A stretch of 64,000 nt of DNA from a virus (Duplodnaviria; Caudoviricetes), in the IMG/VR virus record IMGVR_UViG_2974506496_000001, positions 160,001 to 224,000 of that record; one strand, given 5' to 3'. The translations under genes were made by a program, and so were the position numbers. How positions within the stretch are numbered: the stretch's first letter is position 1; every line of letters starts with the position of its first letter. Under the pieces are notes generated by a model. The model did no database searches. It saw only the letters and a list, made by a program, of their open reading frames with translations, and was not told the origin of the DNA. Shown here one piece after another: positions 2,477 through 13,054 of the stretch.

Positions 2477-2749
2477 ATGAAACTAACTTTATGCCAGGCC
2501 AACGGGTATTCATTGATTCACCCAGCGTACCACAGTCACACCCCGAAGAACAACGTCGTGTTGGCGGAGGGGAAGTTATCCTTTAAAGACAACCGCTGTT
2601 TCCTCGGCACCAAAGAGATCGGTCATGTGCTGGCGAACGGCAACGTACAGTTGAACACCGATGTGGTGCTGCCTACCCTCGGCTTTGTCACTGGGTTGCG
2701 TAACCAGATCCGCTTCCTGCACAAAACCATTGCCCGTCAGCTTCATTAA
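2477..2749 (+). CDS. hypothetical protein
   Basis: AGGAG RBS before ATG 2477; followed by hairpin and T-tract. Confidence 0.65.
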   Translation: MKLTLCQANGYSLIHPAYHSHTPKNNVVLAEGKLSFKDNRCFLGTKEIGHVLANGNVQLNTDVVLPTLGFVTGLRNQIRFLHKTIARQLH

Positions 2750-5665: not shown

Positions 5666-5741
5666 TGGTCTATAGTTCAGTCGGTAGAACAGCGGACTGT
5701 TAATCCGTAGGTCGCTGGTTCGAATCCAGCTAGACCAGCCA
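5666..5741 (+). tRNA. tRNA-Asn(GTT)
   Basis: Full cloverleaf: TGGTCTA/TAGACCA acceptor, GTTC/GAAC D stem, GCGGA-CTGTTAA-TCCGT anticodon arm, GCTGG-TTCGAAT-CCAGC T arm, encoded CCA. Confidence 0.97.
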
Positions 5742-6389: not shown

Positions 6390-7043
6390 ATGTCAACCGA
6401 AATGACCATTTCTCGTGCACTGGCTACAGTGAAGTCTTTGAATGTCCGCATCAAAGATATCTCTAAAAAGCAGGTGCTGATTCTGCCAACTGCCGGCACC
6501 GGCGACATGCAAGCGGTGATCAACAACAGCATCACTGTTACCGATGCTGAAGCCGCCATCCAGAATAACTGGAATGCGCTGAACGACATGATCAAAGTGC
6601 GTAACGATATTCGTGCGAAGATCATCCTGTCGAACGCCACAACCAAAGTGACTATCGCCGGTAAAGAATACACCATTGTTGAGGCATTGGACTTCCGCAA
6701 CTCCCTGGTCGAAAAGAAAGACACGGTTGAGTGCCTGAAGCGCAACTACGACTCCACAATGAAAGTTCACCGCCAGCAGGGCGACATCTACGAAAAGCGT
6801 TTAAGCGATGTGCGCTCCGAAGCCCTGGCCTCCGGCAAGAAGTTTGATGAAGCCAGCTTGAAGACCTTCACCGATCCAATCGATGTGAAGATGAAACCAG
6901 GCCTGATCGATCCTCTGGGTATCTCAGCAGTTATTGAGAAGCTGGACAAAGAGATCGCTGACTTCGAACTTAACGCCGACTACGCGTTGTCCGAATCTAA
7001 CGCAACGACCAAGATCACTGTTGAACTTGGTAACATTGCTTAA
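6390..7043 (+). CDS. coiled-coil protein resembling the DIP1984/DUF6847-like family, immediately upstream of a long structured RNA
   Basis: MTISRAL..VK.L..RI; internal repeat SNATTKVTI / SNATTKITV; TIVEAL; DPLG..IEKLDKEI; family similarity recalled, not searched. Confidence 0.6.
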   Translation: MSTEMTISRALATVKSLNVRIKDISKKQVLILPTAGTGDMQAVINNSITVTDAEAAIQNNWNALNDMIKVRNDIRAKIILSNATTKVTIAGKEYTIVEALDFRNSLVEKKDTVECLKRNYDSTMKVHRQQGDIYEKRLSDVRSEALASGKKFDEASLKTFTDPIDVKMKPGLIDPLGISAVIEKLDKEIADFELNADYALSESNATTKITVELGNIA

Positions 7044-7052
7044 CCCGTATTA

Positions 7053-7495
7053 AAAGGCTTGTCTTCGTTTGACGAAAGATCAAACACCGCCTTCCTATTT
7101 GGCCGGATGGAAGTAAAATAACCGGCCAGCCATTATACATCTGTAGGTCGCAGGTTCGATTCCTGTCGGGGTGAAACCCGTAGCTCAGTCGGTTAGAGCA
7201 GCAGAACAACTGCTTATGCTAAAAGCAATGATCTTTGGGATCATCAATGGTGTACTGTGAGCACCTTGAAATCACAGGTCTAAAGCTTAAAGCTATAACG
7301 TATAATGACTAAAGCTCTAAAGGTTTAAACTTATAACGTTAAAAAGATCTACACTCCCTGATGACTGTGTTCGTCGGGCTATAACGCTAAAACCTTTTAA
7401 ACAAATCCTGGGTATTCCTCCGCTGTGAGGATGGGTAATGTGGAGTGTGGTCTGCCACGTATCGCCGCCAGGCTGTCTTGCGGAGACAAGTCTTT
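7053..7495 (+). ncRNA. ~440-nt Y-RNA (YrlA)-like ncRNA with permuted tRNA domain and UAAAG-like repeats
   Basis: Terminal helix AAAGGCTTGTCTTCG (7053-7067) pairs with CGGAGACAAGTCTTT (7481-7495); GACGAAAG/CTGTC bulged helix; T arm, looped acceptor and D arm in that order at 7140-7205. Confidence 0.7.
7280..7402 (+). repeat. imperfect 6-9-nt tandem repeats with a TAAAG/TAACG core
   Basis: CTAAAG CTTAAAG CTATAACG TATAATG ACTAAAG CTCTAAAG GTTTAAAC TTATAACG TTAAAAAG, then three more units at 7379-7402. Confidence 0.7.
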
Positions 7496-7517
7496 CCCTT
7501 TTGCAATAGGTGACCTA

Positions 7518-7688
7518 ATGACAGGCACTGCCTTAATGATCATTGAGCAACCACAACTGGAATTCAATATCCCGTTGAGGTCGCCTTATCCTACCCTTCA
7601 TGACGTAAGGTTTTCTATGTTCCCTGTTATGGCTGAGCCTGAGAACGAAGGGTTTGAACAAGATTCAGAAACTGACGCATTACATTGA
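7518..7688 (+). CDS. small acidic hypothetical protein (56 aa)
   Basis: AGGTGA RBS before ATG 7518; the longer ORF-track start would overlap the ncRNA. Confidence 0.45.
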   Translation: MTGTALMIIEQPQLEFNIPLRSPYPTLHDVRFSMFPVMAEPENEGFEQDSETDALH

Positions 7689-7977
7689 GGAGATTCAATC
7701 GCGCAGGTTCTTAACCGACTAAAGCCAGGGTGACTTGTGTTATCTTGGTAACAGGTGAACGCGTCGTTACAGCGCATACGACTGAATGGGCCGATCCCCC
7801 CTTCGGAGTAATATTAGCCCAGATCCATTGCACACCAATAAGTCAATGGCTAGCCAGACACACAAAAAACTATTATGCTTCGACAGATGGTAGGTGCCTG
7901 ATTACTACAATTCGATTCGATACCTCAACTAAAAGGCGGACACAAGGGCCGTTATGAGTGAAGCACCAGGAAACTAT

Positions 7978-8030
7978 ACCTTGGTAAGGCCCCAGGCTTT
8001 TTATCCTTACCAAGGTTCTCTTTCTTTTAC
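7978..8030 (+). terminator. intrinsic terminator-like hairpin
   Basis: ACCTTGGTAAGG/CCTTACCAAGGT 12-bp stem followed by TCTCTTTCTTTT. Confidence 0.55.
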
Positions 8031-8106
8031 TACCTGATAATGGGTGGATGCCTTAGTCACCTTTCTTTCACAGAGGCAACAACCTAAGGCGTCTGCCCGC
8101 CCTATA

Positions 8107-8216
8107 ACCCGAGTCGTCTAGCGACAAGACACCGTCAGACCCATTTGGTAACAGCCTAACTTACCTGTTACCCAACCTATGACGGAAACAGGTGGTTCAA
8201 CTCCACCTCTTGGGTC
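8107..8216 (+). ncRNA. tRNA-Glu-like RNA with anticodon loop replaced by a ~44-nt hairpin insert
   Basis: ACCCGAG/CTTGGGT acceptor, TC-GTCT..AGAC D arm, CCGTC/GACGG stem, AAAC variable loop, AGGTGG-TTCAACT-CCACCT T arm. Confidence 0.7.
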
Positions 8217-8293
8217 TTAGGTATTGGCTTAGGCAAACTCCGTCGCGGCTTTACCCTCAATAGGCTGCGTTGCGTAAGTCAGTACCGTGCTGT

Positions 8294-8449
8294 GCGTCGT
8301 ACTCCCTGATGAGGCGCCCGACGTTAAAAGGCACGAAACGGGGACAGAGGATACTCCATCGGTGATTGCAATCAACCACGCTGGGGTTTATACAGGCACT
8401 TGAGAGACACGCTGGTTTCTCGTTGCCTGTCCCTTTGTCCCGTCGGAGT
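8294..8449 (+). ncRNA. type I hammerhead ribozyme with loop II pseudoknot
   Basis: Stem I ACTCC/GGAGT, core CTGATGA (8306-8312), GAAA (8335-8338), stem III ACGGGGACAGAGG/CCTTTGTCCCGT, GTC cleavage triplet ending 8444, GCGTCG (8294-8299) complementary to loop II CGACGT. Confidence 0.8.
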
Positions 8450-8956
8450 CCCTTGCGTTCCTGGAGGGATGACACCGCGTTAAGACTGATCCCCTTAACG
8501 AAGTTGCAATAGCCGGGGGTGTTTCTTGCAAAGGTTACTCACAGCAGACTGCCTCCGCCAATTGCGGATGGCTTAGGCCCTCAGTCCGTCAGGAAGTTGT
8601 CGTTGAATAAATGACAGCTGGACTAGGGTTGCATTATAACCCGGCAAATGTGCAGCCTGTTTTTTCTTCATGTGTACCTGAACCGGTTCAGGAGCCTACA
8701 GATGAGGGAACGACGGGAAGCATATTGCTACCGATCATTTGCTGTGTGACCGGGCCAAGGATGGCATATACCGGAACCAGTAGTCGTATTCAGCGCAGGT
8801 GCGCTTTCTCTTCCTTATCTTGTGGTTAAACCGCGCCTGTCTGGATCATACGTGCCGGGGTCACACCTGGCGCTTATGCCGTCTGAGTTGTATCCTTTTT
8901 TACTCCTACATTACGAAGCTGATATACCCATCAATTCAATTTAAAGGAGTTTAGTT

Positions 8957-12079: not shown

Positions 12080-13054
12080 ATGTCAAAACGTTTAACCCGC
12101 ATCTACGCTTGTGGCGGTGCTGCCATCAACATCACCGCGGCGCAGAAGGACCAGCACGATCAACTGGGCTTCTCTGACCTCAGCGTATCACGTATCGATA
12201 CTTCGGATAAGAACATCAAACCAGGCATGTCACCGAACAGCGTCTACATCCTGGAAAACGCAGACGGTTCTGGTAAAGAGCGTAAACACAACTACAAAGC
12301 GATCGTGGCCTCACTCGAACAGATCCTGGCGATGCACAAACCGGGCGATTACAACATCGTCATGATGTCAGCCTCAGGCGGTTCTGGTTCGGTCATCGGT
12401 CCGGTAATCATTGGCGAGCTGCTGAAGCGTAAGATCCCAGTGGTTGCGCTGGTTGTGGGTACCATCGGTTCTGAAACTGAAACGCAGAACTCCATCAATA
12501 CCCTGAAGTCCCTGGCCGGTGTCTCTGAAGCTCAGAAAGCCCCACTGGTGATGTCATACTTCCCGGTGAACCAGCACTTCGATCAGCGTGAAGTGGACAA
12601 GCAAGTCCTGACCACCATGACGCTGTTGCTCAACCTGTTCGACTCGAAGAACATCGAAATCGATTACAAAGATATCGTGAACTTCCTGAACTACACCAAC
12701 ATCCGCAACACCCGCCCTGGCCTGGTTGGCCTCGAAACGTACAACGACGACGAACTGCAGACCATCGCCGGTACCTCGCCGTTGTCCATGGCGTCAGTGT
12801 TCAAAGATGATAACCGTCCGTTCCTGCCGGTTACCCCGGACTACCATGCCACCGGTACCCGTGACCAGGACATGAAAGATGAGCGTATGCAGTTCAATGC
12901 GCACTATGTCATTACCTCAGCGCCGGTTAAAATGGCGTTCGAAGATCTGAACAAACGTATGAAGCAGATCACTGATCAGCAGCATACTCGCGGCCAGAAC
13001 TTCAACCTGCTGGGTGATGGCGACCAGGGTGACGATAACGGGATGTTCCTGTAA
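12080..13054 (+). CDS. phuZ: phage tubulin PhuZ
   Basis: CGGAAIN, IDTS, DGSGKER and tubulin signature SASGGSGS; acidic C-terminal tail. Confidence 0.92.
   Translation: MSKRLTRIYACGGAAINITAAQKDQHDQLGFSDLSVSRIDTSDKNIKPGMSPNSVYILENADGSGKERKHNYKAIVASLEQILAMHKPGDYNIVMMSASGGSGSVIGPVIIGELLKRKIPVVALVVGTIGSETETQNSINTLKSLAGVSEAQKAPLVMSYFPVNQHFDQREVDKQVLTTMTLLLNLFDSKNIEIDYKDIVNFLNYTNIRNTRPGLVGLETYNDDELQTIAGTSPLSMASVFKDDNRPFLPVTPDYHATGTRDQDMKDERMQFNAHYVITSAPVKMAFEDLNKRMKQITDQQHTRGQNFNLLGDGDQGDDNGMFL

What the first reader, a model, noticed from the sequence alone, without database searches (positions are those of the whole stretch)
7140..7205. Circularly permuted tRNA domain resembling the neighbouring tRNA-Asn
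Seen order: anticodon-stem 3-prime strand TCTGT, variable loop AGGTC, T arm GCAGG-TTCGATT-CCTGT, short acceptor CGGG/CCCG closed by a GTGAAA loop, TA, D arm GCTC-AGTCGGTTA-GAGC, A, then GCAGA pairing back to TCTGT. The acceptor end is sealed, and the anticodon stem opens into the host RNA with no anticodon loop. The D loop, variable loop and stem closely resemble tRNA-Asn at 5666-5741 (AGTCGGTA, AGGTC, GCGGA/TCCGT). This topology is the known hallmark of YrlA RNAs. It cannot be aminoacylated or decode, so it is probably an elbow mimic (inference).
Basis: partly seen in the sequence, partly recalled or inferred. Interest (0 to 1): 0.8.

Follow-up and report, generated by a model that had tools for sequence, protein, structure and literature searches.

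The report
Inside-out tRNA domain in phage RNA
A jumbo Erwinia phage carries a real, evolutionarily maintained "inside-out" tRNA look-alike of the kind known from bacterial Y RNAs, but it has no Ro60 partner gene and sits as an add-on domain inside a much larger, unannotated, folded phage RNA whose function is unknown.

Summary
Window 7140-7205 (+) reads: anticodon-stem 3' strand, variable loop, T arm, sealed 4-bp acceptor hairpin, D arm, anticodon-stem 5' strand. The tRNA core nucleotides that I checked are present.

- **Support for the fold.** Rfam's YrlA model matches only this tRNA-like part (44.5 bits, E 1e-9 in the whole phage). Five phage lineages keep the fold through compensatory changes (97% of cells paired, 8 of 20 pairs changed on both sides).
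- **Not a YrlA member by context.** No TROVE, DUF2828, DUF7788 or vWA_Ro60 gene was found in this 271-kb phage. TROVE and DUF7788 were also absent from its four module-bearing relatives. The proposed Ro60-binding motif is not conserved.
- **It belongs to a larger RNA.** The domain is inserted in a roughly 445-nt stem-closed RNA with a likely pseudoknot (7053-7495), directly after a T5.085-like gene (phrog_1491). I found the same RNA in all ten lineages I looked at, including T5-like and V5-like phages. Those versions carry a plain hairpin at this position.
- **Expression hint.** All four contigs from three metatranscriptomes fall inside this RNA; none falls on the flanking genes.

This scan had already noted the large RNA in T5-like phages (e1-196896). 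Most likely the domain is a tRNA-elbow mimic that gives the large RNA a handle for tRNA-binding factors; that function is inferred, not shown.

The parts
7140..7205 (+). Circularly permuted tRNA-like domain. AC-stem 3' strand 7140-7144; V loop 7145-7149; T arm 7150-7166; sealed acceptor hairpin 7167-7180; U8 A9 7181-7182; D arm 7183-7199; A26 7200; AC-stem 5' strand 7201-7205.
   Evidence: Sequence. Rfam YrlA 44.5 bits, model positions 23-87. Covariation in five lineages. My own model R1 scores 91.9 bits here, against 25-40 bits at tRNA-rich control loci (one confirmed tandem junction 33.6).
7053..7495 (+). Whole host RNA: a roughly 445-nt stem-closed structured non-coding RNA between the phrog_1491 gene and the true start of the next gene.
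   Evidence: RNAalifold on five and on eight lineages. MFE z-score -3.4 here and -6.1 for the T5-like homologue. Metatranscriptome contigs only at 7078-7484. No Rfam family matches it.
7053..7074 (+). 5' strand of the closing helix (16 bp, then a 2x2 internal loop, then 4 bp).
   Evidence: Pairs with 7474-7495. Compensatory changes occur at many pairs across eight lineages.
7474..7495 (+). 3' strand of the closing helix, followed by a T-rich tail (7491-7503).
7071..7078 (+). GACGAAAG at the top of the closing helix. It fits the YrlA GNCGAAN0-1G motif.
   Evidence: Read; motif definition from PMC4201824. The fit is kept in AH06, L018, AKFV33 and NINP13076. It is lost in pEa_SNUABM_37, SA002, My1, L013 and L014.
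7091..7128 (+). Likely H-type pseudoknot. S1 is CUUCC 7091-7095 with GGAAG 7109-7113. S2 is UGGCCGG 7100-7106 with CCGGCCA 7122-7128. The loop reads GGAAGUAAAAUAA.
   Evidence: S1 is in the RNAalifold consensus with changes on both sides. S2 was read directly: seven different sequences in the ten lineages, all still pairing.
7131..7138 (+). 5' strand (CAUUAUAC) of a long-range helix that encloses the variable domain holding the tRNA-like module.
   Evidence: Pairs with GUAUAAUG 7300-7307. The equivalent helix is ACAACCUA/UAGGUUGU in pEa_SNUABM_37 and CAACUAUAC/GUAUA(C)GUUG in SA002. Read; not confirmed by a counting tool.
7300..7307 (+). 3' strand (GUAUAAUG) of the long-range helix.
   Evidence: As for 7131-7138.
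7280..7349 (+). A-rich region with five (C/U)UAAAG-type repeats and the self-complementary GUUUAAAC (7323-7330).
   Evidence: Read. Comparable AAAG repeats occur in all ten lineages. In L018 the palindrome is kept as CUUUAAAG.
7407..7472 (+). 3' domain closed by CCUGG 7407-7411 with CCAGG 7468-7472.
   Evidence: In the RNAalifold consensus. By my reading, My1 has CUCAG/CUGAG and AKFV33 has CCUAGA/UCUAGG.
6390..7043 (+). Upstream gene gp207 (217 aa, phrog_1491, T5.085-like). It is the constant neighbour of the RNA.
   Evidence: PHROG match E 1e-72. tblastn hits in 714 phage records. The RNA lies directly downstream in all ten lineages inspected.
7518..7688 (+). True downstream gene (56 aa). The annotated GTG start at 7425 lies inside the RNA.
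   Evidence: phrog_10783 matched over 1-56 of 56 positions, E 9e-44. Region 7425-7517 is conserved as RNA structure.

Best explanation
**Shown.** 7140-7205 is a selectively maintained, circularly permuted tRNA-shaped domain of the YrlA type: T arm, sealed acceptor hairpin, D arm, closed by a 4-5 bp 'anticodon' stem. It is not a free-standing Y RNA. It is an accessory domain inserted where T5-like and V5-like homologues have a plain hairpin, inside the variable region of a roughly 445-nt stem-closed RNA with a likely pseudoknot (7053-7495). That RNA is encoded directly after a T5.085-like gene in the tRNA islands of many large phages. This phage and its four module-bearing relatives encode no Ro60-like protein that I could detect.

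**Inferred.**
- The domain folds into the tRNA L-shape with an intact D-loop/T-loop elbow.
- It gives the large RNA a tRNA-like handle, so that a tRNA-binding factor that reads the elbow or the D stem is tethered to the RNA or titrated by it. Candidates are modification enzymes such as TruB or Dus, RNase P, the ribosome, or a phage protein.
- It cannot be aminoacylated and cannot decode.
- The large RNA is probably cut out of the gp207-gp208 transcript at its 16+4 bp closing helix (RNase III-like processing) and accumulates as a stable RNA.
For: - **Fold and selection.** YrlA model hit. Covariation in all three variable helices; the D stem and the loops are invariant.
- **tRNA core.** U8, A14, G15, G18, G19, A21, G46, C48, G53, T54, T55, C56, A58 and C61 are all present. 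These are the same interactions that hold the solved YrlA domain in a tRNA shape (10.1101/312249).
- **What is conserved.** The acceptor hairpin varies from 4 to 8 bp among lineages, while the elbow does not vary. Selection therefore acts on the elbow and core, not on the acceptor end.
- **Host RNA.** Closing helix, pseudoknot stem and 3' helix carry compensatory changes in five and in eight lineages. MFE z-scores are -3.4 and -6.1.
- **Insertion.** The homologues in My1, AKFV33, NINP13076, L013 and L014 lack the module.
- **No Ro60.**, with a positive control.
- **Expression hint.** All four contigs from three leaf-litter metatranscriptomes lie within 7078-7484. One wastewater cDNA contig lies at 7217-7385. 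None lies on the flanking genes.
Against: - No binding partner, modification, processing site or transcript end has been measured.
- The expression evidence is low-depth contigs from runs that were selected by shared words.
- Only one clade (five lineages) carries the module, so its gain is a single evolutionary event.
- The module could serve only as a stable structural cap.
- The long-range helix and pseudoknot stem S2 rest on my reading of the sequences, not on a counting tool.
Confidence: 0.55

Rival explanations
1. It is a true Y RNA. The closing helix with GACGAAAG binds a host Ro60/Rsr ring, and the tRNA-like domain tethers an effector, as proposed for Salmonella YrlA.
For: - The YrlA model matches the module.
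- The RNA is closed by a 5'/3' helix, with GACGAAAG at the top of its 5' strand. This is the arrangement of the YrlA motif.
- The phage encodes RtcB, which shares an operon with rsr and yrlA in Salmonella (PMC7790460, listed but not read here; the operon link is from my own knowledge).
Against: - No TROVE, DUF2828, DUF7788 or vWA_Ro60 in this phage. No TROVE or DUF7788 in the four relatives.
- TROVE was found in only 10 of 401 sampled genomes of the host's family, 5 of them over the cut-off.
- The E. coli control genome lacks TROVE, yet T5-like phages of E. coli carry the same RNA scaffold.
- The motif is lost in pEa_SNUABM_37, SA002, My1, L013 and L014.
- Whether Erwinia amylovora itself has rsr was not tested.
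Confidence: 0.1
2. The tRNA fold is only a compact, nuclease-resistant structural cap that stabilises this arm of the large RNA and has no specific partner.
For: Chen et al. proposed this for YrlA (PMC4201824). Homologues function with a simple hairpin at the same place.
Against: A cap would not need an invariant D-stem sequence (GCUC/GAGC never varies). The same D-stem sequence stands in the Rfam YrlA consensus. One search reports that D- and T-stem sequences are conserved among YrlAs and reads this as a binding site. A cap would also not need every tRNA tertiary nucleotide to be kept.
Confidence: 0.2
3. It is a processing signal. RNase P or RNase Z cuts at the acceptor hairpin and splits the RNA in two, as in Mycobacterium smegmatis YrlA.
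For: In SA002 the hairpin is 7-8 bp and the loop begins G-CCA right after the 7-bp stem. M. smegmatis YrlA, with a 7-bp stem, is cut by RNase P and gains CCA.
Against: The stem is 4 bp here, 5 bp in AH06 and L018, and 6 bp in pEa_SNUABM_37. That is too short for RNase P by the criterion given. No CCA is present in those lineages.
Confidence: 0.08
4. It is a decayed remnant of two neighbouring tRNA genes (3' half of one, 5' half of the next) with no function.
For: Tandem tRNA junctions do give weak YrlA-like scores (22 bits; 25-40 bits with R1). The phage has a similar tRNA-Asn 1.4 kb upstream.
Against: Compensatory changes keep all helices in five lineages, down to about 70% DNA identity. The two halves pair with each other. 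The acceptor is a designed hairpin of varying length. No flanking tRNA halves are present.
Confidence: 0.03

Closest known systems
YrlA Y RNAs (Rfam RF02553; Chen et al. 2014 PMC4201824; structure in 10.1101/312249)
   Same: - Same permuted order: T arm, sealed acceptor-like hairpin, D arm, closed by an anticodon-like stem.
- Same conserved tertiary nucleotides and the same invariant D-stem sequence.
- The RNA is closed by a helix of its 5' and 3' ends.
- Occurs in phages and near tRNA genes.
   Different: - No Ro60/TROVE or DUF2828-type gene was found in the genome.
- The Ro60-binding stem of the model is not matched, and the GNCGAAN0-1G motif is not conserved.
- The module is one domain of a roughly 445-nt RNA, not most of a roughly 110-nt RNA.
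- The constant neighbour is a T5.085-like gene.
GOLLD and ROOL large phage RNAs (PMC5737381; 10.1101/2024.12.08.627333)
   Same: Large, intricately folded RNAs of unknown function, encoded by phages, often in tRNA islands. GOLLD sometimes carries tRNAs in a variable linker.
   Different: No Rfam match to either. This RNA is smaller. The tRNA-shaped part here is permuted, sealed and not releasable as a tRNA. Multimer formation is untested.
Phage tRNA-mimic RNAs beside Ro60 or DUF2828/DUF7788 proteins (Vibrio phage BONAISHI, Enterococcus phage EFDG1, IMG/VR loci L065 and L059)
   Same: The modules score 54-64 bits with the model built from this element. BLAST identity to this element is 75-78%.
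   Different: In L005, L006 and L065 they come in pairs directly next to a TROVE+vWA_Ro60 or DUF2828+DUF7788+VWA gene. L059 is a single module in a genome that holds DUF7788. This element has no such gene in the genome.
Two-piece (permuted) tmRNA and permuted tRNA genes
   Same: Gene order with the T arm before the acceptor 5' strand. Pseudoknots lie in the same RNA.
   Different: ARAGORN finds no tmRNA. The D arm is complete, there is no tag frame, no anticodon loop, and the acceptor stem has 4-6 bp in four of five lineages, so no chargeable end can form.

Membership tests
YrlA (RF02553) | Permuted tRNA-like module (T arm, acceptor-like hairpin, D arm) with the tRNA tertiary nucleotides | tested here: met
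   Model positions 23-87 matched, 44.5 bits. Covariation. Nucleotides read.
YrlA (RF02553) | Score at or above Rfam's gathering score (69 bits) | tested here: not met
   44.5 bits. However, the YrlAs beside Ro60 in BONAISHI (59.3, 35.8) and beside DUF2828 in EFDG1 (44.9, 34.2) also fail. The cut-off therefore does not discriminate phage members.
YrlA (RF02553) | GNCGAAN0-1G motif near the 5' end (proposed Rsr contact) | tested here: inconclusive
   GACGAAAG at 7071-7078, at the top of the closing helix. Kept in AH06 and L018; replaced by GCGGGA/U in pEa_SNUABM_37 and SA002. Chance expectation is about 5% per 100 nt (my estimate).
YrlA (RF02553) | Encoded within about 4 kb of a Ro60 (TROVE) gene on the same strand | tested here: not met
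   No TROVE, DUF2828, DUF7788 or vWA_Ro60 in the 271-kb genome. No TROVE or DUF7788 in four relatives.
YrlA (RF02553) | Bound by Rsr; modified by TruB and DusA | not testable with these tools
   Needs immunoprecipitation and modification mapping.
T5.085-associated large phage RNA (unpublished as far as I found; earlier scan note e1-196896) | Lies directly downstream of a phrog_1491 gene | tested here: met
   Seen in ten of ten lineages inspected.
T5.085-associated large phage RNA (unpublished as far as I found; earlier scan note e1-196896) | Long closing helix of the 5' and 3' ends | tested here: met
   Read by eye for L013 and L014.
T5.085-associated large phage RNA (unpublished as far as I found; earlier scan note e1-196896) | Pseudoknot with a GGAGGUUAAAUAA-like loop, AAAG repeats, and a 3' CCUGG/CCAGG helix | tested here: met
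   S1 and the 3' helix are in the RNAalifold consensus. S2 and the repeats were read directly.
tRNA | Anticodon loop, 7-bp acceptor stem with free ends | tested here: not met
   No loop between 7205 and 7140. The acceptor is a sealed 4-bp stem. ARAGORN and Rfam tRNA are negative.
tmRNA (including permuted) | Chargeable acceptor, tag reading frame, detection by ARAGORN | tested here: not met
   One search finds none. The acceptor is sealed.
GOLLD / ROOL | Match to the Rfam models | tested here: not met
   No match at E up to 10, up to 5 or up to 1.

The most novel reading that the evidence does not exclude
The roughly 445-nt RNA is a new class of large phage RNA that works without Ro60, perhaps as a particle with the neighbouring T5.085-like protein, or as a multimer through its self-complementary GUUUAAAC. 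Nucleus-forming (PhuZ-encoding) Erwinia and Salmonella jumbo phages have grafted a sealed tRNA mimic onto it. The graft could capture a host tRNA-binding machine, or mark the RNA for tRNA-like handling, for example trafficking out of the phage nucleus.
Probability: 0.2. Interest if true: 0.8.

Novelty: new variant of a known kind. Interest (0 to 1): 0.62.

Why it matters
YrlA-type tRNA mimics have been defined by their partnership with Ro60. Here the same domain, with its elbow and D-stem sequence conserved, is kept by selection in phages in which I found no Ro60-like gene, grafted onto a different and much larger RNA.

This separates the tRNA-mimic module from Ro60. It supports the idea that the module has its own still-unknown tRNA-binding effector. 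It also offers a natural with/without comparison for finding that effector: jumbo phages with the module against T5-like phages without it.

Finally, it draws attention to an unannotated, probably abundant large RNA present in hundreds of sequenced phages, among them T5 relatives (T5.085 is the homologous gene).

Tried and rejected
- **Re-permutation and tRNA scoring.** Not run: the script machine was lost.
- **Host rsr.** I sampled 401 genomes of the family through a Kosakonia handle instead.
- **Supplement and review.** The supplement of Chen 2014 and the 2020 Ro60 review are not held.
- **gp207 function.** The AlphaFold model is confident (pLDDT 88) and is a helical bundle. The only structural or sequence neighbour is a protein of unknown function, 3kdq. 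The 'tail fiber' label is unsupported.
- **Promoter and terminator scan of 6900-7700.** Found nothing. What I first read as a 5' hairpin and a 3' terminator hairpin are better explained as the two strands of the closing helix.
- **Counting pseudoknot stem S2 with a tool.** Failed because MAFFT put the lineages in two registers.
- **Literature.** Searches for a described T5 or jumbo-phage RNA at this locus found none.
- **Hammerhead ribozyme.** The CUGAUGA...GAAA strings at 7357-7363 and 8305-8338 have no proper stem II and no Rfam hit, so I rejected this.
- **attP remnant.** Considered and set aside without a test. I expected a lytic jumbo phage not to integrate, and did not compare the module with host tRNA genes.
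- **Metatranscriptome cover.** Shares are small (0.06-0.10) and depth is about 2, so no habitat or expression level is claimed.

Full report
**Where the window lies.** It is bases 160001-224000 of a 271-kb virus record. The record is 99% identical to the Erwinia amylovora jumbo phages Deimos-Minion, Rebecca, MadMel and Desertfox, genus Agricanvirus. The relatives annotate a PhuZ tubulin at the place of window 12080-13054. None of the records annotates anything under the finding.

**The observation.**
- ARAGORN finds only tRNA-Asn at 5666-5741.
- At its gathering score, Rfam finds only that tRNA.
- With a relaxed threshold, the YrlA model RF02553 matches 7142-7205 at 44.5 bits and E 1.3e-8, covering model positions 23-87, which is exactly the tRNA-like module.
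- It is the only such match in the whole phage, E 1.2e-9.
- As a control, a real tRNA-Thr/tRNA-Ile junction scores 22 bits with the same model.

**Conservation of the domain.** I found the same element, in the same place, in four more lineages:
- Erwinia phage AH06
- an IMG/VR contig of 287 kb (L018)
- Erwinia phage pEa_SNUABM_37
- Salmonella phage SA002

No shuffle reaches these values, and slid controls give 35-45% paired.

The pattern of variation is informative:
- The T stem, the acceptor hairpin and the anticodon-like stem all covary.
- The D stem never varies.
- The acceptor hairpin has 4, 5, 5, 6 and 8 pairs in the five lineages.
- The loops and core are constant: U8, A14, G15, G18, G19, A21, G46, C48, G53, T54, T55, C56, A58 and C61.

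These are the interactions that hold the crystallised YrlA domain in a tRNA L-shape. That paper also notes conserved D- and T-stem sequences as a likely binding site. The domain is therefore real and under selection, and the selected part is the elbow and core.

**The domain is not a YrlA by context.** Chen et al. define YrlA by three features: the tRNA-like module, a GNCGAAN0-1G motif near the 5' end, and a position within about 4 kb of a Ro60 gene on the same strand.
- The phage has no TROVE, DUF2828, DUF7788 or vWA_Ro60 match.
- The four relatives have no TROVE or DUF7788.
- The same search does find DUF7788 in another phage, L059's genome, which serves as a positive control.
- In a sample of 401 genomes of the host's family, TROVE matched in 10, of which 5 were over the cut-off. 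Erwinia itself could not be singled out.

For comparison, canonical arrangements exist in other phages. Vibrio phage BONAISHI has two YrlA-like RNAs just upstream of a TROVE+vWA_Ro60 gene. Enterococcus phage EFDG1 and IMG/VR locus L065 each have two next to a DUF2828+DUF7788+VWA gene. Those RNAs also fall below Rfam's gathering score, so the score alone says little.

**The host RNA.** The gene after the element really starts at ATG 7518. The 56-aa product matches phrog_10783 end to end, so 7044-7517 is non-coding.

RNAalifold was run on the five lineages. It was then run on eight, after adding the T5-like phages My1 and AKFV33 and the V5-like phage NINP13076. Both runs give:
- a closing helix, 7053-7074 with 7474-7495 (16 bp, a small internal loop, then 4 bp), with many compensatory changes;
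- a stem CUUCC/GGAAG (7091-7095 with 7109-7113);
- a helix CCUGG/CCAGG (7407-7411 with 7468-7472).

By direct reading:
- GGAAG lies in the loop of a second stem (7100-7106 with 7122-7128). That stem has seven different sequences in the ten lineages and always pairs, which makes a likely H-type pseudoknot.
- A long-range helix (7131-7138 with 7300-7307) encloses the tRNA-like domain and two or three hairpins.
- An A-rich stretch with repeated UAAAG follows (7280-7349).

Two more distant jumbo contigs, L013 and L014, have the same layout. Single-sequence folds recover the closing helix, with z-scores of -3.4 here and -6.1 for AKFV33.

In all ten lineages the RNA follows a phrog_1491 gene (T5.085 in phage T5). 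Homologues of that gene occur in 714 phage records, often among tRNA genes. No Rfam family matches the RNA, and I found no paper describing it. This scan had already noted it in a T5-like phage (e1-196896). My analysis reached the same conclusion from a different genome before I saw that note.

**The tRNA-like domain is an insertion.** My1, AKFV33, NINP13076, L013 and L014 have no such module after the gene. My1 and AKFV33 have a plain hairpin at that position. The module-bearing genomes tested all encode a PhuZ homologue, whereas the L013 and L014 genomes do not. This is one clade, so it counts as one event and is not evidence of a functional link.

**Expression.** Three leaf-litter metatranscriptomes hold contigs at 7078-7228, 7239-7388, 7258-7483 and 7252-7484, at 99% identity or more. 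A wastewater cDNA run holds 7217-7385. Nothing lies on gp207 or beyond 7500. Depth is about 2, and contigs cannot show ends, so this is only a hint that the RNA is more abundant than its neighbours.

**How it most likely works.**

Shown: the fold, the selection on it, the embedding in a larger RNA, and the absence of a detectable Ro60 gene.

Inferred: the domain adopts the tRNA L-shape and presents an elbow and D stem that a tRNA-binding factor recognises, so the factor is tethered to the large RNA or titrated by it. The sealed acceptor and the missing anticodon loop rule out charging and decoding. The closing helix is long enough to be an RNase III site, which would release the RNA from the gp207-gp208 transcript.

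Only SA002 has a 7-8 bp acceptor stem followed by G-CCA in the loop. That version could be opened by RNase P, as happens for M. smegmatis YrlA.

**Rivals.**
- **Ro60-dependent Y RNA.** Kept alive by the closing helix with GACGAAAG at its top and by the phage's RtcB gene. Weakened by the lack of any Ro60 gene, the loss of the motif in half the lineages, and the presence of the same scaffold in phages of E. coli, whose control genome lacks TROVE.
- **Purely structural cap.** Possible, but it does not explain the invariant D-stem sequence.
- **tRNA-gene relic.** Contradicted by the covariation.

**Verdict.** This is a new variant of the YrlA-type tRNA mimic, detached from Ro60 and grafted onto a large, widespread, undescribed phage RNA.

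Noticed in passing
window 7689-8956: A 1.27-kb stretch with no annotated gene in the relatives. It holds a perfect T-arm-like hairpin, GGTGG-TTCAACT-CCACC (8191-8207), flanked by GACCCA (8138-8143) and TGGGTC (8211-8216). These could form an acceptor-like stem around a long hairpin (8148-8173). This may be a second, D-arm-less tRNA-like element. SA002 has a similar GGTTCAACTCC motif (L004:3466). No Rfam hit.
   Followed up: partly
window 7353-7364 and 8301-8312: The 12-mer ACTCCCTGATGA occurs in the large RNA and again about 950 bases downstream. Its meaning is unknown. It is not a hammerhead ribozyme.
   Followed up: no
window 7323-7330: A self-complementary GUUUAAAC lies in the A-rich region. 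In L018 it reads CUUUAAAG, so the palindrome is kept by a double change. This would fit RNA-RNA self-pairing or a DNA-level binding site.
   Followed up: no
window 7425-7688; L004:2749-3093: The annotated starts of the downstream small gene lie inside the RNA. Here the annotation uses GTG 7425, but the true start is ATG 7518. In SA002 the annotation starts at 2749, but the true ATG is at 2920.
   Followed up: yes
window 6390-7043: gp207 is labelled 'tail fiber protein' through phrog_1491. The confident model is a helical bundle, and its only neighbour is the unknown protein 3kdq. The gene sits among early genes and tRNA genes and is always followed by the large RNA. The label looks wrong, and the protein is a candidate partner of the RNA.
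   Followed up: partly
G000:C1:44575-45723 (outside the window): The phage encodes a full-length RtcB RNA ligase (E 6e-127).
   Followed up: no
L006:2473-2592 and 2675-2786; L005:2302-2409 and 2480-2603; L065:2254-2332 and 2513-2593 (minus strand): Unannotated pairs of YrlA-like RNAs lie next to a Ro60 gene (Vibrio phage BONAISHI) or next to DUF2828+DUF7788+VWA genes (Enterococcus phage EFDG1 and an IMG/VR jumbo contig).
   Followed up: partly
L004:3308-3378: An unannotated tRNA-like sequence in Salmonella phage SA002 (Rfam tRNA 34 bits, with several unpaired acceptor positions).
   Followed up: no
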